From: an uncultured Actinomycetota bacterium
Lineage (GTDB): Bacteria; Actinomycetota; Acidimicrobiia; Acidimicrobiales; Bog-793
Assembly: GCA_963735115.1 (NCBI GenBank)
Contig: CAVTJR010000003.1
Coordinates: forward strand, 1,352,641-1,416,640
Direction of reading: 5' to 3'
Length of the DNA stretch: 64,000 bases
Below the pieces are notes generated by a model, which saw nothing but the letters and a program-made list of their open reading frames with translations, had not been told where the DNA came from and made no database searches. The translations under genes were made by a program, and so were the position numbers. This document shows, one piece after another, positions 2,832-46,026 of this stretch (position 1 is the stretch's first letter; each line of letters opens with the position of its first letter).

Positions 2832-3420
2832 GCCAGAGTTTCGTCTCGGTCCGAGGGACGAGAACCTCCTCGACGATCTCGTAGCCGTGCTCGTGGTAGA
2901 AGGCAAGGTTCTCTTGCTTGGACGATTCGAGATAGCTCGGGATCGACTCGTTGTCGCATCGGCTGAGAACGACCCGCAACAGCGCAGATCCGTAGCCCTT
3001 CCGTTGCACGGCTGGATCTGTCCCGACGGTGCCGAGGTAGAAATGCGGCACGCGCGGATGGTGGGATTCGAGCACCTGCATGAGGCGGAGCGCCCTGCCG
3101 GTTCGGCGACCGAGGATGACAACCACCGGAAGTTGTGACACGCCTTCTGCCATCGAGGGCGGCCATTGGTTGGGCGGCACCCACAGCGAAGCTGCGTCAA
3201 GGCTCGGCGTCGTCCACGCCTCCCCCCTCGGAAGGAACATGGTCCGGATCTGAAAGCGGAAATAACGCTCGAGGCGCTTGATGCGGCGGTGATCTTCCGG
3301 GAAGAGATAGCGCGACACCGGGTCGTCGTAAAAGGCCCGCGCCAGCGACTCGCTCAGCTTCGAGATGTCAGCCGGCAGGACCGGACGCACCTCGACACCG
3401 GTAGCGGGGCGCTCAGCCAC
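2803..3420 (-). CDS. GNAT family N-acetyltransferase
   Basis: The acetyl-CoA motif region is VGTDPAVQRKGYGSALL and the C-terminal end is FYHEHGYEIV. The track ORF extends to 3627, but that stretch is Arg/Ser-rich and overlaps the next gene. GTG at 3420 (VAERPATGVEVRPVLPADI) is a more plausible start; the start remains uncertain. Confidence 0.75.
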   Translation of the reverse strand: MAERPATGVEVRPVLPADISKLSESLARAFYDDPVSRYLFPEDHRRIKRLERYFRFQIRTMFLPRGEAWTTPSLDAASLWVPPNQWPPSMAEGVSQLPVVVILGRRTGRALRLMQVLESHHPRVPHFYLGTVGTDPAVQRKGYGSALLRVVLSRCDNESIPSYLESSKQENLAFYHEHGYEIVEEVLVPRTETKLWLMWREPGGG

Positions 3421-3604: not shown

Positions 3605-4228
3605 GTGACCGATACTTTGCCATCCATCGCCCGAGAGTTCTCCGTGACGTGGGACTACCGCTGCCCGTTCGCCCGTAACGCCCACGAGCATCTGCTCACC
3701 GCCATCGAAGCCGGGGCCCCTTACGACGTCACATTCGTTCCCTTCTCCCTCAACCAGATGCATCTCGAAGAGGGAGCACCACCTGTGTTCGACGACCCGA
3801 CGCGGCACCGGGATCTCCTCGCCATGCTCGTCGGGATCGTCGTACGTGACCGCCGACCGGAGCAATGGCTTGCGGTCCACCGGGGGCTCTTCGCCCTCCG
3901 CCACGACGAAGGACGTGACCTCCGCGAGGAGCCGGAGCTTCGCTCCGTCCTCGAGAGCAACGGTGTCGACGCCGACTCCGTCTTCGGGGAGATCGCCAGC
4001 GGGTGGCCGCTCGACACCTTCCGCAAGGAGCACGACGCCGCCGAACGCGAGCATGCTGTCTGGGGTGTACCTACGTTCATCGTCGGCAATCAGGCGGCTT
4101 TCGTCCGAATCATGACGAGACCAAACGGTGAGGCCGCGACTGCGCGGCGCACGATCGACCGCATCCTCGGCATGCTCGAGGAGTTCCCCGAGCTGAACGA
4201 GCTGAAGCACACGTCCATCCCGAACTGA
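3605..4228 (+). CDS. DsbA-like thioredoxin-fold oxidoreductase
   Basis: The WDYRCPFARN active-site-like region and ...HAVWGVPTFIV... are typical of the DsbA / 2-hydroxychromene-2-carboxylate isomerase family. The track ORF begins at 3365. I place the start at in-frame GTG 3605 (or 3644). Confidence 0.7.
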   Translation: MTDTLPSIAREFSVTWDYRCPFARNAHEHLLTAIEAGAPYDVTFVPFSLNQMHLEEGAPPVFDDPTRHRDLLAMLVGIVVRDRRPEQWLAVHRGLFALRHDEGRDLREEPELRSVLESNGVDADSVFGEIASGWPLDTFRKEHDAAEREHAVWGVPTFIVGNQAAFVRIMTRPNGEAATARRTIDRILGMLEEFPELNELKHTSIPN

Positions 4229-6761: not shown

Positions 6762-7316
6762 GTGCTCGGCTGGATCGAGCCTTCGGGCAGAATGACGGCC
6801 GTGACGTCGCCGGAGAACTCGCTCCTGATCGTCCCTGTCCGGGGCGACATCACCGCCGAGGAGACCGACGTCGTCGTCAACGCCGCTAACTCGTCGCTCA
6901 TGGGGGGCGGCGGCGTGGACGGAGCCATCCACCGCGCGGCCGGCGCCGCTCAACTGCATGCCGCCTGCGCGGCCCTCGGTGGGTGCGCGACGGGTGAGGT
7001 GAAACTGACGGGGGGTTTCGCCTTGAAGGCGACGTGGATCGCTCATGCCGTCGGCCCCGTGTGGCGGGGCGGGGACCGGGGTGAGGCCGAGCTCCTCGCC
7101 AGCTGCTACCGGCGCAGCCTCGAGCTGGCCGACGAGGTCAGGGCGGTTTCGATCGCTTTCCCGGCCATCTCGACAGGCGCCTTCGGTTACCCGCCGCGCG
7201 AGGCGGCTCGCATCGCCGTCGACACCTTGCGCTCGACGCCGACGAACGTCAGGCTTGCTCGTCTCGTCGCCTTTGACTCGGAGACCTTCGCACTCTACGA
7301 AAGGCTGCTCGCATGA
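6762..7316 (+). CDS. Macro domain protein (O-acetyl-ADP-ribose deacetylase / YmdB-like)
   Basis: The sequence shows [34 protein letters not shown]...[14 protein letters not shown]. The start may instead be the ATG at 6792. Confidence 0.85.
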
Positions 7317-7968: not shown

Positions 7969-8565
7969 GTGACCGCTCCCCTGCTCGGCCGCCCGGAGGC
8001 GGCCATGCTGCTCGCCGTCGAGGGTGCCAACGGTGGCGAGCTGTCCGGTCTCGAACAGGTGCTCGTCGCTTTCGAGACTTTGTTCGACCGGCAGATGGAG
8101 CCGGAGGCCTACGCGCAGTCCTGCGCCTTGTTGTGCGAGGCGGGGCTCGTGGAGTTCGTCGAAGGGTGCCTCGGGCTCACGCCCGCGGGTCGCAAGCTCC
8201 TTCGCCGCACGGGTGTGCCTGGCAACCCGGGGCGGCCTCACAACGTCGCCGAGCAGCTCGCTCCCTTGGAGGAGCTCGATCTTGCCGGCGAGGGCTCGGT
8301 CCCCTCGCCCACGGTGGCGGCGTTCGAGGCGGCCGGCGCTGCTCTCAAATCGGACGGGGCAGCGGGCGACGCACCCTTGCTCGGCTCCGAGCTGGCGCCA
8401 CGGCCGCGGGGCATCCTCTCCGGCTACGGCGGGATCAACCAGGGGTCGACGCGGCGCTCGCCGCTCTTTCACGAGCACGACGCTCCTGTTCGGGACGCAC
8501 CCCGTGTCCGACCCGACGATTGGGACGAGCCGGAGCCGGGGCCGGGGCCGGGGCCGGACGGCTGA
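7969..8565 (+). CDS. Hypothetical protein
   Basis: This is the in-frame GTG start after the GNAT stop, inside track ORF 7555..8565. Composition is coding-like and the tail is acidic/Pro-Gly. I recognise no family. Confidence 0.4.
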   Translation: MTAPLLGRPEAAMLLAVEGANGGELSGLEQVLVAFETLFDRQMEPEAYAQSCALLCEAGLVEFVEGCLGLTPAGRKLLRRTGVPGNPGRPHNVAEQLAPLEELDLAGEGSVPSPTVAAFEAAGAALKSDGAAGDAPLLGSELAPRPRGILSGYGGINQGSTRRSPLFHEHDAPVRDAPRVRPDDWDEPEPGPGPGPDG

Positions 8566-8593
8566 GCCGGGAAGCTCAGACCGTTTCGCTCGA

Positions 8594-8643
8594 TTCTGGG
8601 TGGGTGAAAGGGACCGTCGCTGTCCCAAAGTGCGTCCAGAAGG
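8594..8643. repeat. 50-bp structured direct repeat, copy A
   Basis: TTCTGGGTGGGTGAAAGGGAccgtcgctgTCCCaaagTGCGTCCAGAAGG. It has nested inverted repeats (TTCTGG/CCAGAA and GGGAC/GTCCC). It ends 14 nt before the DUF559 gene stop. Confidence 0.9.
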
Positions 8644-8657
8644 CTGGCGATGACTCC

Positions 8658-9614
8658 TCAGGCCACGGTGCTCGACCGACCGAGTACCGCCTTCAGATCC
8701 GAGACGACCAGATGCGGTGCTTCGTGAACCGAAGCTGGCGTGGTCCGGAGCAGTATCCATCCGCTCGCCACGATCCGGTTGCCCCGCTCTCGGTCGTTGA
8801 CAAATGTCCGTGAGTCTGAGTGGTAGCGATAGCCGTCGAGCTCGAGCGCTACCCGCCGGTCGGGCCACGCCAGGTCGACGCGGCCCAAGAAACGCCCGCC
8901 GAGGCGGATCGAGTACTGCGTCTCCGGACGCTCGACGCCGGCGGTCACAAGCAGGTCGACCAGCCTGGCTTCCGCCACGCTGTCGACCTCACACAGACGT
9001 TCGACCACTCGCCGAAGACGGGCGAGCCCCTTTATGCCCCGTCCCGTAGATGACACGTACCTCTCGAGGCTGCGAATGCTCAGCAAGTGCTCGGCCACGC
9101 AATAGTCGAGGAACCCCTGTAACTGCTTGTCGTCGAGTGCCTCGCCGGCGATGTCGAGCATTGTGCGCAGGGGTCGCGTGACCTCAACTCCAGCGCGTCT
9201 CGTCGTAAGCCCTTCGAGGGTGCGGCGCGTCAGGTGAACGATCATGCCCGGCCGCCGGCACGGGTGGCATCCGTGTCGTACGGTCACGTGAATCGCCTCG
9301 CCTTCGAAACCCGCCCCGCGGTATCCCCACAGCTGGGCGGCAGTCTGGTGGGAGATGACCCCGCTGGTGTGGGTCGTCGCGACGAGCGCGCGTTCGGCGA
9401 GCCCCACCTCGGAACCGACGAGGCGGTAGACACCGTGGGCCTCTCTAATCAGCGCTCCCTTGGTCACGAGTCGCTGAAGTCGCTTCCGACTGATACCGAG
9501 GGCGGAGGCGGCGGTCGTCGTGACAATGCCTCGTGAACCGCCGGCCGCGTCCGCGAGCAGCTTCAACGGTTGCCGAACCGACTGCGCTTCGTCCACGCCG
9601 GCATCATCCCGCAT
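8658..9614 (-). CDS. AbiEi-like N-terminal HTH plus DUF559 (Vsr-like endonuclease fold) protein
   Basis: The N-terminal part is GIVTTTAASALGISRKRLQRLVTKGALIREAHGVYRL. The C-terminal part is RVDLAWPDRRVALELDGYRYHSD...ERGNRIVASGW. The start is taken at ATG 9614 (MRDDAG...), because the track start at 9653 lies inside repeat B. Confidence 0.8.
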   Translation of the reverse strand: MRDDAGVDEAQSVRQPLKLLADAAGGSRGIVTTTAASALGISRKRLQRLVTKGALIREAHGVYRLVGSEVGLAERALVATTHTSGVISHQTAAQLWGYRGAGFEGEAIHVTVRHGCHPCRRPGMIVHLTRRTLEGLTTRRAGVEVTRPLRTMLDIAGEALDDKQLQGFLDYCVAEHLLSIRSLERYVSSTGRGIKGLARLRRVVERLCEVDSVAEARLVDLLVTAGVERPETQYSIRLGGRFLGRVDLAWPDRRVALELDGYRYHSDSRTFVNDRERGNRIVASGWILLRTTPASVHEAPHLVVSDLKAVLGRSSTVA

Positions 9615-9630
9615 GGCTGTGTCACGCCGC

Positions 9631-9680
9631 TTCTGGGTGGGTGAAAGGGACACATAGCGTCCCTAACTGCGTCCAGAAGG
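9631..9680. repeat. 50-bp structured direct repeat, copy B
   Basis: TTCTGGGTGGGTGAAAGGGAcacatagcgTCCCtaacTGCGTCCAGAAGG. The 20-nt and 13-nt flanks and the stem bases are identical to copy A; the loop bases differ. It begins 16 nt upstream of the DUF559 start. Confidence 0.9.
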
Positions 9681-9735
9681 AGGCGGCGGCGGCGCGGCGG
9701 CCCGGCCGGCGGCGGCGGCGCGGCCGCGGCGGCGC
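9681..9735. repeat. GGC-rich simple-sequence tract
   Basis: aggcggcggcggcgcggcggcccggccggcggcggcggcgcggccgcggcggcgc lies between repeat B and the cinA stop. Confidence 0.7.
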
Positions 9736-10983
9736 TCAGTCGAGGTCGAGCAGCCGCTGGCGCACGACGTCGAGCACCGAGATCGTCGCCATCTGCCGTA
9801 TCCGGTCACGATCGCCCGGCACCCGCAACAGGACCGCCTCCGGCTCGCGCCCCGGCAGCGCCACGCCGGCGTACACCGTCCCCGGGGGCTGGTCGTCCTG
9901 GGAGGTCGGCCCGGCCACGCCGGTCACCGCCAGCCCAACGTCAGCCCCGAGTACCCGGCACGCCGCCGAGGCCATCTCGCGAGCGGCGGACTCGGAGACG
10001 ACGGGGCCCTCGCTGACGCCGAGGAGCGACCGCTTCACTTCGGTCGCGTAGGTCACGGCCGAACCGCGGAACCACACCGAGGCCCCAGGCACCGACACGA
10101 TGCGGGAGGCGACGAGCCCACCCGTCAGCGACTCGGCGAGCCCGATCGTCCAACCGCGATCGACCAGCAGCTGACCCACGACCGACTCCATCGTGTCGCC
10201 GTCGACACCGAAGACCGTGCGGCCGAGCAACGACTTGATCTCGGCGGCTTCGGCGTCGAGCGCCGCCGAGGCGCTCGCTGCATCGGCTGCCTTCACCGTG
10301 AGGCGGACCTTCAGACCCTCGATGCCGCTGGCGAGAAAGGCGATCGTGGGCACGCCGATCGCACCCTCGCCGAGCTTCTCGATGCGGGGGCCGAGCACCT
10401 CGGCCAGGCCCGACTCCGACATCCCCCAGGTACGCAGCGTGCGGCTGGCGATGACGGCGGTCTCGCCGGCCCGTGCACGCAGATCCGGCAGGACCGCCCG
10501 CTCCAGCATCTCGTGCATCTCGTAGGGAACGCCCGGCATGGCATAGACGACCTTCAGGCCGACCGGACAGATGAGACCCGGCGCCGTGCCCATCGTCTGG
10601 GGGATGAGAGTCGCCCCTTCGGGCACGTCGGCCTGCCGGCCGTTGTTGGCCGGCATCTCCCGCCGCCGCGAGGCGAACATCGCCCGGATGCGCTCGAGCA
10701 CCTCCGGATCGCGCCGGAGGGGGACGTTCATGACCTCGGCGATCGCCTCCCGGGTGATGTCGTCTTGCGTGGGGCCGAGGCCCCCGCACACGATGACGGC
10801 CTCACTGCGGGCAAGCGCTGTCCGCAACGCCAGCACGATGCGGGAGAGGTTGTCTCCGACTGACGTCTGGAAGTGGCAGTCGAGGCCCGAGGCCGCCAGT
10901 TGCTCGGCGATGTAGGCGGAGTTCGTATCGACGATCTGTCCGAGCAAGAGCTCGGTCCCGACAGCGACGATCTCGGTGCGCAC
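9736..10983 (-). CDS. cinA: CinA family competence/damage-inducible protein (MoCF-binding plus nicotinamide-nucleotide amidohydrolase domains)
   Basis: The sequence reads MRTEIVAVGTELLLGQIVDTNSAYIAEQL...VIVCGGLGPTQDDITREA..., with a C-terminal PncC-like half. Confidence 0.9.
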   Translation of the reverse strand: MRTEIVAVGTELLLGQIVDTNSAYIAEQLAASGLDCHFQTSVGDNLSRIVLALRTALARSEAVIVCGGLGPTQDDITREAIAEVMNVPLRRDPEVLERIRAMFASRRREMPANNGRQADVPEGATLIPQTMGTAPGLICPVGLKVVYAMPGVPYEMHEMLERAVLPDLRARAGETAVIASRTLRTWGMSESGLAEVLGPRIEKLGEGAIGVPTIAFLASGIEGLKVRLTVKAADAASASAALDAEAAEIKSLLGRTVFGVDGDTMESVVGQLLVDRGWTIGLAESLTGGLVASRIVSVPGASVWFRGSAVTYATEVKRSLLGVSEGPVVSESAAREMASAACRVLGADVGLAVTGVAGPTSQDDQPPGTVYAGVALPGREPEAVLLRVPGDRDRIRQMATISVLDVVRQRLLDLD

Positions 10984-17744: not shown

Positions 17745-18692
17745 TCAGCGACCTTCGAGCAGCTCCCGCCGCTTGGTTTCGTACTCGGCGTTCGTGATCA
17801 CCCCTAGCCGGAGCAGCTCGTCGAGCCGCGTCAGCTCCTCACTCGACGATGACGGCAGCGAGTCAGCCGGCGCCGGAACCGGCTGGGCGGCTGGAGGCGC
17901 GACCGGAGGCGGGGCGTACTGCTGGGACACCTGCTGCTGCGGGTACTGGGGCGAGGGTTGCTCGGGTAGCGGTGACGGCGTCGGGTAGGTCGGAGGTTGC
18001 GGTTGCACCGGGTGCTGCGCTGGCTCGTACCGGGGTGGTTGGTACTGGGGCGGCTGGTACTGTGCCGGCTGGTACTGGGGTTGCGGGTTCGGCTGGGCGT
18101 ACTGGGGTGGAGGCTGGTTCTGCGCCGGCTGGTACTGGGGTTGCGGGTTGGGCGGGGCGTACTGGGGCTGCTCGTAGGCGCCCTGGGGTGGGTACGCGCC
18201 AGCGCCGTAGCCCGCCGCTGGGGGCGAGATCAGCCGGTTCATCAGCGACTGAACGGCGGCGGGATGCCGTATGTCCGGGAACGGCTCCTCGCCTCCGGCG
18301 CCGGCTGACTGAATCGTCAGGCTGCCGGCACCCACGAGGCGCTCGACGATGCTCTGCGAGTACGTCACGTCTTGCACGCGGTCGAGGGGGATCTCACGAC
18401 CGAGACGGCGCAGGACACCCGTTCGATACACGACCCGCCGGTTCGTGAGCACGAGCGTGGTGGAGCGCCACACGCCGATCTTGCCGAGCACCCAGAGGAA
18501 GAACACACCGGCGATGCCGAGAAGCACCCAGCCCACCCACAGTGGAGCATGTGTCCACTCCACCACGACGGTGACAGAGGCGGCGACGACCAGCAGGAAC
18601 AGCGACACGCGAGGGACGAGGATCGACCAGTTCGGGTGCGCCTCAAGGACGATGTCCTCGCCCGGGGCGAGGAGCTTGCGAGGAAAGGCCAT
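17745..18692 (-). CDS. Membrane bPH_2 (YdbT-like PH) domain protein with a P/Q/Y-rich linker and C-terminal SHOCT-like domain
   Basis: The N-terminal part MAFPRKLLAPGEDIVLEAHPNW has two TM helices, followed by TNRRVVYRTG...IPLDRVQDV. Then comes a long QPQYQP-type low-complexity stretch. The C-terminal end is LTRLDELLRLGVITNAEYETKRRELL. Confidence 0.8.
   Translation of the reverse strand: MAFPRKLLAPGEDIVLEAHPNWSILVPRVSLFLLVVAASVTVVVEWTHAPLWVGWVLLGIAGVFFLWVLGKIGVWRSTTLVLTNRRVVYRTGVLRRLGREIPLDRVQDVTYSQSIVERLVGAGSLTIQSAGAGGEEPFPDIRHPAAVQSLMNRLISPPAAGYGAGAYPPQGAYEQPQYAPPNPQPQYQPAQNQPPPQYAQPNPQPQYQPAQYQPPQYQPPRYEPAQHPVQPQPPTYPTPSPLPEQPSPQYPQQQVSQQYAPPPVAPPAAQPVPAPADSLPSSSSEELTRLDELLRLGVITNAEYETKRRELLEGR
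18061..18167. repeat. Tandem ~60-bp duplication inside the PQ-rich linker coding region
   Basis: tgYgccggctggtactggggttgcgggttSgg..gggcgtactgggg occurs at 18061 and again at 18121. It encodes QPNPQPQYQPAQ-type repeats. Confidence 0.8.
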
Positions 18693-42391: not shown

Positions 42392-42468
42392 TGGCGCCCC
42401 CGGCACGACTCGAACGTGCGACCGTCTGCTTAGAAGGCAGCTGCTCTGTCCAACTGAGCTACGGGGGC
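42392..42468 (-). tRNA. tRNA-Arg (anticodon TCT), CCA encoded
   Basis: The reverse complement GCCCCCGTAGCTCAGTTGGACAGAGCAGCTGCCTTCTAAGCAGACGGTCGCACGTTCGAGTCGTGCCGGGGGCGCCA folds as a cloverleaf. The anticodon loop is CTTCTAA. Confidence 0.95.
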
Positions 42469-45995: not shown

Positions 45996-46026
45996 TGCTT
46001 AGAAGGCAGCTGCTCTGTCCAACTGA
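45996..46026 (-). repeat. 31-bp exact copy of an internal tRNA-Arg segment (D-loop through anticodon arm)
   Basis: tgcttagaaggcagctgctctgtccaactga is identical to 42427-42457 in the same orientation. The flanking bases differ on both sides. Confidence 0.9.

What the first reader, a model, noticed from the sequence alone, without database searches (positions are those of the whole stretch)
8594..9680. DUF559/AbiEi-like gene bracketed within 14-16 nt by two 50-bp structured direct repeats
Seen in sequence: copy A (8594-8643) and copy B (9631-9680) share TTCTGGGTGGGTGAAAGGGA ... TCCC .... TGCGTCCAGAAGG.
- The outer arms TTCTGG/CCAGAA and the inner arms GGGAC/GTCCC are preserved in both copies. 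The 7-nt inner loop and a 4-nt spacer differ, so sequence is conserved mainly in the stems and the flanking single-stranded segments.
- The repeats sit 14 nt beyond the stop (8658) and 16 nt upstream of the likely start (9614) of a single gene. That gene lies between otherwise conserved neighbours (cinA and the recA region).
- A GGC simple-sequence tract follows copy B.

Inference: either the repeats are recombination or attachment-type sites delimiting a one-gene mobile cassette, or they are a family of structured RNA or REP-like elements acting as 5' and 3' UTR elements of this gene. I saw no further copy in the window.
Basis: partly seen in the sequence, partly recalled or inferred. Interest (0 to 1): 0.6.

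Follow-up and report, generated by a model that had tools for sequence, protein, structure and literature searches.

The report
Palindrome-flanked AbiEi–nuclease gene cassette
The two 50-bp repeats are copies of a REP-like palindromic DNA element that is scattered through related Acidimicrobiia genomes, and together with the DNA-binding nuclease gene between them they form a small accessory cassette, a layout that recalls REP elements and their RAYT transposase but involves a different, uncharacterised protein family.

Summary
Copies A (8594-8643) and B (9631-9680) share 21 + 13 identical bases and bracket one gene. They are the only copies in the window.

They are not a private pair. A pattern scan and a covariance model show a family of about 48-nt palindromes in Acidimicrobiia genomes, with at least 27 copies in one MAG. 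Most copies sit just after stop codons. The arms are species-specific and covary.

The gene encodes a complete AbiEi-type winged-helix module fused to a Vsr/DUF559-type nuclease. Homologues in at least four other chromosomal contexts, including a 27%-identical Mycobacterium protein, are flanked by lineage-specific palindromes of the same design. Close relatives of the window organism (CinA 85-92% identical) lack the gene and both repeats. The hairpin-gene-hairpin unit is therefore an indel.

There is no RNA-strand bias, no recombinase, no HUH transposase and no Rfam match.

Best reading: a REPtron-like cassette in which the palindromes are the cognate DNA sites of the encoded protein. Known AbiEi proteins bind two 23-bp inverted repeats with a similar geometry. 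Protein binding and any nuclease-driven mobility are inferred, not shown. I found no description of this association in the literature I could search.

The parts
8594..8643 (.). Downstream palindromic repeat (copy A), a degenerate member of the Acidimicrobiia REP-like palindrome family. It lies 14 nt after the stop of the AbiEi-nuclease gene and 28 nt after the convergent hypothetical gene's stop (8565).
   Evidence: Covariance model hit of 38.3 bits, E 2e-9. Identical in all same-species contigs.
8658..9614 (-). Gene for a 318-aa protein: a full AbiEi-type module (wHTH plus AbiEi C-terminal domain, residues about 20-192) fused to a Vsr/DUF559-type (REase_MTES_1575) nuclease domain (residues about 205-300).
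   Evidence: - Pfam: AbiEi_4 at 1.5e-10, MTES_1575 at 2e-5.
- PADLOC: AbiEi model at 7e-26 across the full profile.
- AlphaFold model with pLDDT 88.
- Foldseek hits: 6Y8Q AbiEi, 1ZEL Rv2827c, 3R3P I-Bth0305I, 1VSR, 3HRL.
- Conserved S212, E215, D247, E258, D260, H265, D274, R277.
9615..9624 (-). Conserved leader motif TGACACAGCC (family consensus TGACACACCC, followed 6-8 nt later by ATCATG or ATGATG). It lies 6 nt after the upstream palindrome and directly before the ATG.
   Evidence: Present once in each of 13 homologous loci. In most of the loci that have an upstream palindrome it lies about 5-7 nt after it (a few more in L094, L087 and L099). Its reading frame relative to the ORF varies, so it is non-coding.
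9631..9680 (.). Upstream palindromic repeat (copy B), in the same orientation and with the same asymmetric arms as copy A. It lies 16 nt before the ATG and about 55 nt after the cinA stop.
   Evidence: Covariance model hit of 46.2 bits, E 1e-11. One loop SNP among strains, in L010.
9681..9735 (.). GGC-rich, length-variable tract between the cinA stop codon and copy B. It is part of the segment that is absent from relatives.
   Evidence: The tract is 50, 55 or 88 nt in same-species contigs. The whole 8566-9735 interval is replaced by 25 nt in L097.
8566..9735 (.). The full indel segment (cassette) between the stop codons of the hypothetical gene and cinA.
   Evidence: Empty sites in L096, L097 and L098 have no gene and no palindrome.

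Best explanation
The two repeats are members of a dispersed, REP-like family of about 48-bp extragenic palindromes found across the class Acidimicrobiia. They are the cognate DNA sites of the protein encoded between them. Palindrome, gene and palindrome form one accessory unit, analogous to a REPtron (a RAYT gene flanked by REPs). The protein, however, is an AbiEi-type winged-helix DNA binder fused to a Vsr/DUF559-type PD-(D/E)xK nuclease.

Proposed mechanism:
1. Two AbiEi modules bind the two 21-23-nt arms of each palindrome, as AbiEi and Rv2827c bind pairs of 23-bp inverted repeats.
2. The upstream copy sits 5-7 nt from a conserved leader, so binding there would autoregulate the gene.
3. The fused nuclease would be brought to the palindromes at both ends of the gene and to solo copies elsewhere. 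Nicking or cutting there would promote recombination.
4. That recombination would explain why the whole unit is gained or lost as a block. It would also explain why solo copies resembling the gene-flanking copies are scattered through the genome, either as seeded copies or as solo-LTR-like scars of recombination between the two direct repeats.

Shown:
- The repeat family and its palindromic covariation.
- The extragenic 3'-end location of the copies.
- The recurrent flanking of this gene family in several contexts.
- The presence/absence polymorphism of the whole unit.
- The protein's domain make-up and intact active site.

Inferred:
- That the protein binds these palindromes.
- That the nuclease acts on them.
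- That this drives mobility.
For: Repeat family:
- The genome scan gave 66 loci, about 55 of them in Acidimicrobiia. These include at least 27 copies in MAG SPRUCE 675, 14 in SM_70_13, 7 in SMAG_U7928, and copies in Actinospongicola, Iamiaceae and Microthrixaceae.
- The unspecified arm positions covary strongly: 83.8% of cells paired against 71% in shuffles; 180 double-change cells against 84; slid controls 32-46%.
- Compensatory changes also occur within single genomes.
- Most copies lie within tens of nt after stop codons.

Specific link to the gene:
- Among all scan loci, only L069 carries a homologue (66.6% identity). It is bracketed by two copies that differ by 1 nt from each other and by 2-3 nt from a solo copy. 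The median pairwise distance in that MAG is 9.
- Palindromes also flank homologues at ThiF|gene|MCM (both sides in L011, L015, L069 and L099, with a degenerate upstream copy in L099; downstream only in L090), at MaoC|gene|thiolase (L087, L091/92, L094), in L093 and on the downstream side of the truncated L095. L085 has a related palindrome upstream only.
- The centre GGAC-N6-GTCC is shared. The outer arms are lineage-specific.
- MAG CAZAMA01 has both the flanked gene (L099) and a solo copy with the same arm (L054).
- A Mycobacterium interjectum homologue (27% identity) lies between two 54-nt direct repeats, at least the upstream of which folds as a 21-nt-arm palindrome.
- My estimate of the chance that one gene has a copy in both flanking spacers is about 3e-4 per genome. 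It rests on a density of at most 27 copies per 1.56 Mb (contig lengths).

Cassette behaviour:
- Relatives with CinA 92%, 87% and 85% identical have cinA next to the same neighbours. They have no gene and no palindrome there.
- At the ThiF locus the neighbours are 92-97% identical, but the AbiEi-nuclease proteins are only 64-68% identical and the arms differ.

Protein:
- It has a full AbiEi fold plus a Vsr-like nuclease with conserved catalytic residues.
- AbiEi binds two 23-bp inverted repeats 3 bp apart. Rv2827c binds pairs 13 bp apart (PMC7319586). The element here has 21-23-nt arms with a 6-7-nt spacer.

DNA level rather than RNA level:
- G.U pairs show no strand bias, and stability is equal on both strands.

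Carrier:
- The gene is not carried on plasmids, phages or viral contigs.
Against: - No solo copy was found in the window genome itself. Only 64 kb plus flanks could be read, and the metagenome scan for the window-specific arm returned nothing.
- The window copies are the weakest palindromes of the family.
- In repeat-rich genomes, ordinary genes (a siderophore-interacting protein, 6-phosphogluconate dehydrogenase) are also bracketed.
- Some homologues lack this palindrome type. L016 and L084 carry other tandem repeats, and L090 lacks the upstream copy.
- I could not test whether SM_70_13, SMAG_U7928 or Actinospongicola encode the gene. No Actinospongicola homologue appeared in a word-indexed protein search.
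- Vsr-type nucleases are not known to carry out strand transfer, so a transposition mechanism is unproven.
- The gene sits at the same locus in several species, so movement is rare.
- The empty sites contain no solo palindrome. A homing-into-a-solo route is therefore not directly supported.
Confidence: 0.5

Rival explanations
1. Autoregulated toxin or defence gene with operator and terminator. The AbiEi-nuclease would be a single-chain AbiE-like toxin-antitoxin or abortive-infection effector. The upstream palindrome would be its AbiEi operator and the downstream one a terminator or second operator. The cassette would be gained and lost by ordinary horizontal transfer or recombination. The dispersed palindromes would be extra binding sites or an unrelated host element, and the nuclease would not mobilise them.
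For: - AbiEi-type fold and a PADLOC AbiEi match.
- Known AbiEi and Rv2827c autoregulation through 23-bp inverted repeats.
- Fixed spacing of the upstream palindrome to a conserved leader.
- Fast evolution relative to neighbours, typical of conflict genes.
- The gene stays at one locus over several species.
Against: - The downstream copy is at least as conserved as the upstream one. L090 keeps only the downstream copy, and it is the only side preserved on the truncated L095 contig.
- The two copies share private asymmetric arms.
- Solo copies 2-3 nt away from the gene-flanking copies occur elsewhere in the same genome.
- There is no AbiEii/DUF1814 partner gene.
- Within-genome compensatory arm changes point to intrastrand pairing rather than operator recognition alone.
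Confidence: 0.25
2. Generic REP-like or terminator-like palindromes with no specific relation to the gene. They would accumulate at 3' ends of genes, and two of them happen to sit at the 3' ends of cinA and of this gene.
For: - The family is dispersed and mostly sits just after stop codons, often between convergent genes.
- Housekeeping genes can also be bracketed.
- Mycobacteria have an analogous palindromic terminator-like family, TRIT, with 147 copies (PMC3152330).
Against: - Bracketing recurs in at least 10 homologous loci, in at least 4 chromosomal contexts and in two classes of Actinobacteria.
- The arm type changes with the protein lineage.
- The relatives' empty sites lack both palindromes together with the gene.
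- The window has no other copy in 64 kb.
Confidence: 0.1
3. Attachment or recombination sites of a site-specific recombination system (integron-attC-like or IS200/IS605-like ends) acted on by an enzyme encoded elsewhere.
For: - Structured direct repeats with conserved stems and variable loops delimit a single promoter-proximal gene.
- The unit is an indel.
- Loops of the flanking copies are reverse complements in L011 and L015, which suggests strand exchange or template switching within the stems.
Against: - No integrase, HUH or TnpB gene is called next to the cassette in the same-species or homologous loci read. The wider window was not screened.
- There are no attC core sites.
- The empty sites carry no single att copy.
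- The arms covary with the lineage of the encoded protein.
Confidence: 0.05
4. Structured RNA elements: 5'/3' UTR hairpins, an sRNA, or a transcript stabiliser or terminator selected at the RNA level.
For: - Position at gene ends.
- Stable hairpins in many family members, -25 to -52 kcal/mol as RNA.
Against: - No Rfam family matches.
- G.U pairs are equally frequent on sense and antisense strands (19 against 19), with stability 14 against 12.
- In the window the extra G.U pairs are on the antisense strand, and sense-strand stability for copy A is at shuffle level.
- There is no U-tract.
Confidence: 0.05

Closest known systems
REPtron / REPIN-RAYT systems (REP-associated tyrosine transposase flanked by REP sequences; Nunvar 2010, Bertels & Rainey 2011, Ton-Hoang 2012; PMC3116915, PMC3733652)
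   Same: - A usually single, largely vertically inherited gene is bracketed by copies of a short palindromic element.
- That element is dispersed in tens of extragenic copies in the same genome.
- The arm sequence is specific to the lineage of the flanked gene.
- Doublets and clusters of copies occur.
   Different: - The flanked protein is not an HUH/Y1 transposase but an AbiEi wHTH fused to a Vsr-type PD-(D/E)xK nuclease.
- There is no GTAG or CGTC tag.
- The flanking copies are in direct rather than inverted orientation, judged by their asymmetric arms.
- Each unit is itself a 48-nt palindrome.
- Activity on the repeats is untested.
AbiE type IV toxin-antitoxin system: AbiEi antitoxin and its operator (PMC7319586, PMC3985639)
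   Same: - The N-terminal two-thirds of the protein has the AbiEi fold (6Y8Q, 1ZEL).
- The palindrome directly upstream of the gene has the geometry of AbiEi operators: two roughly 23-bp inverted repeats with a short spacer.
   Different: - There is no AbiEii/DUF1814 nucleotidyltransferase partner. A nuclease is fused instead.
- A second copy lies downstream of the gene.
- Solo copies occur elsewhere in the genome.
TRIT, the 'Tuberculosis Rho-independent terminator' palindromes of Mycobacterium (RNIE paper, PMC3152330)
   Same: - A sequence-conserved, bidirectional palindromic motif in roughly 100 or more copies, tightly associated with gene 3' ends.
- The repeats flanking the Mycobacterium interjectum homologue start at the stop codon, as described for TRITs.
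   Different: - TRIT is reported only from Mycobacterium and is interpreted as a terminator with no associated protein.
- The sequence is unrelated to the Acidimicrobiia element.
- Identity of the L100 repeats with TRIT could not be tested because no model or sequence was available.
Vsr-fold nucleases: E. coli Vsr, DUF559 (NGO0050, 3HRL), homing endonuclease I-Bth0305I (3R3P)
   Same: The C-terminal domain has this fold and the conserved D...ExDG..H...D.R signature. The best structural match is the catalytic domain of a selfish homing endonuclease.
   Different: - It is not in an intron or intein.
- The gene does not split a target site but lies between two complete palindromes.
- No cytosine methyltransferase partner was seen.
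Integron gene cassettes with attC sites; IS200/IS605 elements with subterminal hairpins
   Same: Single genes delimited by imperfect palindromes in which the stems are conserved and the loops variable. A single-strand or hairpin form is plausibly relevant.
   Different: - There is no IntI, TnpA (HUH) or TnpB.
- There are no attC core sites.
- The left and right elements are the same sequence.

Membership tests
REP/REPIN-type dispersed extragenic palindromes | Short imperfect palindrome present in tens or more copies per genome | tested here: met
   At least 27 copies in MAG SPRUCE 675, 14 in SM_70_13 and 7 in SMAG_U7928. For the window genome itself only the 2 copies in 64 kb could be seen.
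REP/REPIN-type dispersed extragenic palindromes | Extragenic location, typically at gene 3' ends | tested here: met
   With a crude GC3-based gene caller, 50 of 72 copies lie next to at least one 3' end and 6 lie between divergent genes.
REP/REPIN-type dispersed extragenic palindromes | Palindromic symmetry maintained by compensatory change | tested here: met
   covariation score 0.334 against 0.124 in shuffles and 0.06-0.10 in slid controls. Compensatory variants also occur within one genome.
RAYT-type REP (GTAG/CGTC-tagged) | GTAG (or CGTC) tetranucleotide at one end | tested here: not met
   The ends are TTCTGG...CCAGAA, often extended by CG on both sides.
REPtron | The flanked gene encodes an HUH/Y1 (IS200/IS605-like) transposase | tested here: not met
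   Pfam, PADLOC and Foldseek give AbiEi plus a Vsr-like nuclease only.
REPtron | Gene flanked by copies of the element that is dispersed in the same genome | tested here: met
   L069 in SPRUCE 675, with flanking copies 2-3 nt from a solo copy. L099 plus L054 in MAG CAZAMA01. Not testable for the window genome.
AbiE type IV toxin-antitoxin | AbiEi antitoxin (wHTH plus C-terminal domain) | tested here: met
   PADLOC AbiEi at 7e-26 over profile positions 8-178 of 184. Foldseek 6Y8Q at E 1e-8.
AbiE type IV toxin-antitoxin | Adjacent AbiEii (DUF1814) nucleotidyltransferase toxin in a bicistronic operon | tested here: not met
   The neighbours are cinA and a conserved hypothetical gene that is also present at empty sites.
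AbiE type IV toxin-antitoxin | Antitoxin binds paired roughly 23-bp inverted repeats in its own promoter | not testable with these tools
   The geometry fits: 21-23-nt arms, a 6-7-nt spacer, and a position immediately upstream. Binding needs EMSA or footprinting.
Vsr / DUF559 nuclease superfamily | Vsr-type fold with conserved acidic and histidine catalytic residues | tested here: met
   D247, E258, D260, H265, D274 and R277 are invariant or nearly so in 29 homologues. Foldseek hits 3R3P, 1VSR and 3HRL. The Pfam MTES_1575 hit is below its gathering score (24.9 against 38.2 bits).
Integron gene cassette | attC with R''/R' core sites, and an IntI integrase with attI nearby | tested here: not met
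   No core-site consensus in the repeats. No integrase among the called neighbours.
Known RNA families (Rfam 15) | Match at or near the gathering score | tested here: not met
   Only tRNAs in the window. Nothing relevant at E<=10 in 8400-9900.
Mycobacterial TRIT | Match to the TRIT covariance model; restricted to Mycobacterium | not tested
   No TRIT model or sequence was available. Only the descriptive features of the L100 repeats agree. There is a sub-threshold Rfam hit to Ms_IGR-8 (20 bits against a gathering score of 44).

The most novel reading that the evidence does not exclude
The large, uncharacterised AbiEi-wHTH/Vsr-nuclease family is a second, non-HUH class of REP-associated proteins. 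It comprises about 6,000 50%-identity clusters at E<=1e-10. Each lineage would recognise its own roughly 48-bp palindrome through the AbiEi module. Through its nuclease it would create, spread or homogenise the species-specific extragenic palindromes of Actinobacteria. These may include the mycobacterial TRIT 'terminators', whose sequence conservation has had no explanation.
Probability: 0.3. Interest if true: 0.85.

Novelty: new variant of a known kind. Interest (0 to 1): 0.65.

Why it matters
Dispersed palindromes (REPs) are common in bacterial genomes. [quoted passage not shown]

Here a very large and functionally unstudied protein family, an AbiEi DNA binder fused to a Vsr-like nuclease, is repeatedly found bracketed by lineage-matched palindromes. 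In at least two genomes the same palindromes are also scattered at gene ends.

If the protein acts on these sites, three things would follow:
- It would define a new protein-repeat partnership.
- It would give a function to thousands of 'DUF559/AbiEi-domain' genes.
- It might explain sequence-conserved terminator-like palindromes such as TRIT in Mycobacterium.

The hypothesis can be tested directly with one purified protein and one oligonucleotide.

Tried and rejected
- Rfam at gathering and permissive thresholds gave no relevant family.
- The promoter and terminator consensus scan of 8300-10000 found nothing at the repeats.
- The metagenome scan for the window-specific arm (TTCTGGGTGGGTG-N4-GGGAC-N5-8-GTCC) gave zero hits, although JGI contigs with it exist in another index. 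That collection evidently lacks those samples, so the absence of solo copies in the window species is not established.
With 18 sequences it gave only 6 loci.
- The PDB sequence search and NCBIfam gave no hits.
- The gene and the palindrome are absent from phages and viral contigs. Plasmids gave only two weak partial protein matches. A search for the Mycobacterium repeat in plasmids found nothing.
- The RNA-level hypothesis was tested by G.U strand asymmetry and rejected.
- I considered TGACACACCC as the true N-terminus (MTHP...). It lies in different frames in different loci, so it is non-coding.
- I considered it as a sigma-70 -35 element. The spacing to the conserved ATCATG (about 12 nt) does not fit.
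- A profile search for an Actinospongicola homologue, identifiable by its contig length of 4,081,608, found none among 120 listed hits. The word index limits sensitivity, so this is inconclusive.
- The 12 non-actinobacterial pattern hits match on one strand only and lack palindromic arms. I treat them as the chance matches expected for a 20-base degenerate pattern.
Full report
**1. The observation**

The sequence is as described.
- Copy A (8594-8643) and copy B (9631-9680) are identical over the first 21 nt (TTCTGGGTGGGTGAAAGGGAC), over the inner GTCCC, and over the last 13 nt (TGCGTCCAGAAGG).
- They differ in the 7-nt loop and in a 4-nt spacer.
- The 21-mer and the 3' block each occur exactly twice in the 64-kb window, even with three mismatches allowed. 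None is expected in shuffles.
- The gene between them (8658-9614, minus strand) ends 14 nt from copy A and starts 16 nt from copy B.
- cinA lies immediately upstream. A hypothetical gene, a GNAT gene, a macro-domain gene and recA lie on the other side.
- As free hairpins the two copies are modest. Only the 6-bp outer and 5-bp inner stems pair on both strands. Three further pairs, two of them G.T, form only on the + strand, which is antisense to the gene. Folding energies are close to shuffled controls.

**2. The repeats belong to a dispersed palindrome family**

Homologues of the gene at 64-67% identity lie in a different chromosomal context, between ThiF/MoeB and methylmalonyl-CoA mutase. They are flanked by related elements of the form TTCTGG-N11-GGAC-N6-GTCC-N11-CCAGAA, whose arms are long and nearly perfect palindromes.

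I scanned one genome per species for that degenerate pattern.
- The scan gave 66 loci, about 55 of them in Acidimicrobiia.
- There were 25 loci (at least 27 copies) in MAG 'Acidimicrobiales bacterium SPRUCE 675', 14 in SM_70_13 and 7 in SMAG_U7928.
- Others were in Actinospongicola halichondriae, Iamiaceae, Microthrixaceae and Ilumatobacteraceae.
- The 12 hits outside this group match on one strand only, lack symmetric arms, and are consistent with chance.

Within each genome the 11 unspecified arm positions are complementary, but they differ between genomes. Examples are GTGCACG.../...CGTGCAC, CAGGGAAAACC/GGTTTTCCCTG and CGCGGAGATCT/AGATCTCCGCG. Compensatory variants also occur within a single genome.

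On a 53-sequence alignment:
- 83.8% of cells pair, against 71% in column shuffles and 32-46% when partners are slid.
- There are 180 double-change cells, against 84 in shuffles.

The invariance of TTCTGG, GGAC, GTCC and CCAGAA in that alignment is partly an artefact of the search pattern. The covariation is not.

A covariance model (R1) gave these results:
- It recovers all copies plus nine that the pattern missed.
- It finds only copies A and B in the window. They have the lowest scores of the family, 46 and 38 bits against a typical 55-69.

**3. Where the dispersed copies sit, and at what level they are selected**

I used a simple GC3-based gene caller.
- Most copies lie in intergenic spacers within tens of nt of a stop codon.
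- 33 lie between tandem genes, 17 between convergent genes and 6 between divergent genes.
- The 10 'inside' cases are probably caller artefacts.

For 26 copies with an unambiguous transcribed strand, G.U pairs are equally frequent on sense and antisense strands (19 against 19). Neither strand folds better (14 against 12). Rfam has no match. The element therefore behaves as a DNA-level palindrome of the REP type, not as a strand-specific RNA.

Doublets of two copies 14-57 nt apart are common. In SPRUCE 675 they often pair two arm subfamilies, which resembles BIME clusters.

**4. The link to the gene is specific**

- tblastn of the window protein against all scan loci hits only L069 (SPRUCE 675). 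There the gene is bracketed by two copies.
- Those two copies differ by 1 nt from each other and by 2-3 nt from a solo copy on another contig. The median pairwise distance in that MAG is 9.
- The same bracketing is found at ThiF|gene|MCM in L011-14, L015, L069 and L099 (degenerate upstream copy). L090 keeps only the downstream copy.
- It is also found at MaoC|gene|thiolase in L087, L091/92 and L094, and in L093. The truncated L095 contig shows a downstream copy, and L085 has a related palindrome upstream only.
- In these loci the centre (C/G)GGAC-ACATGT-like-GTCC(C/G) is retained. The outer arms differ by lineage: CTGGTAGTG..., GGCTAGTAG..., CCTTGATAGTG..., TTCTGGCTGC....
- MAG CAZAMA01 has both the flanked gene (L099) and a solo copy with the same GGGTGGGTG arm (L054).
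- A Mycobacterium interjectum homologue of only 27% identity, between ileS and dinX, lies between two 54-nt direct repeats. At least the upstream one folds as a 21-nt-arm palindrome.
- Exceptions: L016 and L084 carry other tandem repeats instead, and L090 has lost the upstream copy.

In repeat-rich genomes a few housekeeping genes are also bracketed. At the observed density, at most 27 copies per 1.56 Mb of hairpin-bearing contigs, I estimate the chance of one given gene having a copy in both flanking spacers at about 3e-4 per genome. Recurrence across independent contexts and classes therefore cannot be coincidence.

**5. The unit is an indel**

- All 20 same-species contigs that were read carry the cassette. 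The ten that were fetched have identical repeats apart from one loop SNP.
- Relatives with CinA 92% (L096), 87% (L097) and 85% (L098) identical keep rimO-pgsA-cinA and the recA-side neighbours.
- These relatives have no AbiEi-nuclease gene and no palindrome at the site.
- L097 has 25 nt between the convergent stop codons. L096 has a DUF6186 gene there instead.
- The 1,170-bp segment 8566-9735 was therefore gained in the window lineage, or lost precisely elsewhere, as one block. The block comprises the GGC-rich tract, copy B, the leader, the gene and copy A.
- At the ThiF locus the flanking proteins are 92-97% identical between genomes. The AbiEi-nuclease proteins there are only 64-68% identical, no closer to each other than to the window protein, and their palindrome arms differ. 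Gene and arms diversify or are replaced together, much faster than their surroundings.
- The unusual arm variant TTCTGGACG(C/T)A is shared by both window copies and by the first downstream copy of L011. This hints that the palindromes travel with the gene.

**6. The protein**

- Residues about 20-192 match complete AbiEi antitoxin models (PADLOC 7e-26; Pfam AbiEi_4).
- The C-terminal about 100 residues match REase_MTES_1575, described as a novel Vsr-family REase (PMC3710099).
- An AlphaFold model (pLDDT 88) superposes on S. agalactiae AbiEi (6Y8Q) and M. tuberculosis Rv2827c (1ZEL).
- Its C-terminal domain superposes on the I-Bth0305I homing-endonuclease catalytic domain (3R3P), on Vsr (1VSR) and on the DUF559 protein NGO0050 (3HRL).
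- The signature S212, E215, D247, E258-x-D260-G, H265, D274 and R277 is invariant or nearly so in 29 homologues. The nuclease is therefore probably active.
- There is no AbiEii partner gene.
- The family is very large: 6,261 representatives of 50%-identity clusters at E<=1e-10, mostly full-length proteins of about 300 aa. It includes many Mycobacterium, Cellulomonas, Georgenia and Nocardioides proteins annotated only as 'DUF559' or 'AbiEi family antitoxin domain' proteins.
- It is not found on phages or viral contigs, and plasmids gave only two weak partial matches.

**7. How it most likely works**

Established knowledge: AbiEi binds two 23-bp inverted repeats separated by 3 bp in its own promoter. 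Rv2827c binds pairs separated by 13 bp. Both autoregulate (PMC7319586).

The element here has the same geometry.
- It has two 21-23-nt arms with a 6-7-nt spacer.
- In most of the loci that have an upstream palindrome, the copy ends about 5-7 nt before a conserved non-coding leader, TGACACACCC-N6-8-ATCATG.

From this I infer three steps:
1. The AbiEi module of this protein binds the arms of its cognate palindrome and represses its own gene at the upstream copy.
2. The fused Vsr-type nuclease is thereby positioned at both ends of the gene and at solo copies.
3. Nicking or cleavage there promotes recombination.

Such recombination would account for block-wise gain and loss of the unit and for solo copies that closely resemble the gene-flanking copies. 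The solo copies could arise in two ways. One is dispersal of the palindrome. The other is recombination between the two direct repeats, which would leave solo copies as solo LTRs are left.

Compensatory arm changes within a genome occur. In L011 and L015 the loops of the flanking copies are exact reverse complements while the arms stay direct (ACATAG/CTATGT and AAATGC/GCATTT). Both observations indicate that the arms really do pair intrastrand, as a hairpin or cruciform, at some stage.

Steps 1-3 are inference. No binding, cleavage or transposition has been shown. A Vsr-type nuclease alone has no known strand-transfer activity.

**8. Rivals**

- The most serious rival is that the gene is simply an autoregulated AbiE-like toxin or defence gene with an operator and a terminator, and that the dispersed palindromes are unrelated. 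This does not explain the conserved downstream copy, the shared private arms, or the near-identical solo copies.
- Pure coincidence with a generic REP is excluded by the recurrence.
- att sites of a recombinase are disfavoured by the absence of any recombinase next to the cassette and by empty sites without a single copy.
- RNA UTR elements are disfavoured by the lack of strand bias.

**9. Comparison with known systems and novelty**

- The architecture works like a REPtron (a RAYT flanked by REPs, with REP/REPIN copies dispersed). It fails the defining membership tests: there is no HUH/Y1 transposase and no GTAG tag.
- It shares the AbiEi fold and operator geometry with type IV AbiE systems but lacks the AbiEii toxin.
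- The mycobacterial TRIT family consists of 147 palindromic, bidirectional copies that begin just inside the stop codon. Its authors suspected 'further cellular machinery' (PMC3152330). TRIT resembles the repeats flanking the Mycobacterium homologue, which begin at the stop codon. I could not test identity, so this is only a lead.
- Literature searches for DUF559, MTES_1575, AbiEi with repeats, and extragenic palindromes in Actinobacteria found no description of this association.
- I rate it a new variant of a known kind: a REP-plus-associated-gene system with a different protein class.

**10. Limits**

- Solo copies in the window organism itself could not be assessed beyond about 75 kb.
- MAG binning may mix genomes.
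- Gene calls around the dispersed copies are approximate.

Noticed in passing
window 9615-9624 (minus strand); also L011, L015, L016, L069, L084, L085, L087, L090, L091, L093, L094, L099: A conserved non-coding leader, TGACACA(C/G)CC followed 6-8 nt later by ATCATG or ATGATG, precedes every homologue. In most loci with an upstream palindrome it lies about 5-7 nt after it. Its frame relative to the ORF varies, and its spacing does not fit a sigma-70 promoter. Its function is unknown; it could be an operator, a promoter for another sigma factor, or an element end.
   Followed up: partly
window 9681-9735; L099:3700-3784; L091:2818-2892; L015 upstream of 5918; L084 upstream of 5001: Short tandem or simple repeats recur immediately upstream of the upstream palindrome. 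Examples: the window GGC tract of 50, 55 or 88 nt among strains, caused by a 38-nt duplication; 17-nt x4; 14-nt x4; 68-nt x2.5; 77-nt x3. This suggests slippage or instability next to the palindrome.
   Followed up: partly
L011:5888-5935 against 6935-6982; L015:5918-5965 against 6967-7014: The loops of the two gene-flanking copies are exact reverse complements (ACATAG/CTATGT and AAATGC/GCATTT), while the asymmetric arms keep direct orientation. This is a 'flip-flop' of the loop, as expected from template switching or recombination within the inner stem.
   Followed up: partly
L020, L035, L039, L071 (MAG SPRUCE 675); L075; L076; L011:6935-7065: Palindromes often occur as doublets 14-57 nt apart. 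In SPRUCE 675 four doublets pair the two arm subfamilies (TTCTGGATGG... with TTCTGGGTGC...), which resembles BIME clusters of E. coli REPs.
   Followed up: no
L100:2903-2956, 3121-3136, 3860-3913 (Mycobacterium interjectum LT546237.1): The mycobacterial homologue is flanked by palindromic direct repeats that begin at the stop codons of ileS and of the gene itself (CCTGACCGCGAAAG). A third, exact 16-nt copy of the repeat start lies inside the ORF. The repeats fit the published description of TRIT elements. There is a sub-threshold Rfam hit to Ms_IGR-8.
   Followed up: partly
L096:3979-4722: In the closest relative (CinA 92% identical), the same cinA|hypothetical spacer is occupied by a different gene (DUF6186) instead of the cassette. 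This spacer is therefore a hot spot for accessory-gene insertion.
   Followed up: no
L011, L015, L069, L090 (ThiF|gene|MCM locus): The AbiEi-nuclease proteins at this one syntenic locus are only 64-68% identical, while the flanking ThiF and MCM proteins are 92-97% identical. This indicates either very fast evolution or repeated allelic replacement.
   Followed up: partly
window 42427-42457 and 45996-46026: An exact 31-nt direct repeat. The first copy lies within a tRNA gene (42395-42468, minus strand) and the second is an isolated partial copy 3.5 kb away. The interval encodes a 967-aa AAA_16 ATPase and a zinc-ribbon/cyclase-like protein but no integrase. It looks like the remnant of a tRNA-targeted insertion.
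   Followed up: partly
window 18019-18175: A degenerate 15-nt periodic tandem array (GGCTGGTACTGGGGN-like, 6 or more units). It is probably a coding repeat and was not examined.
   Followed up: no
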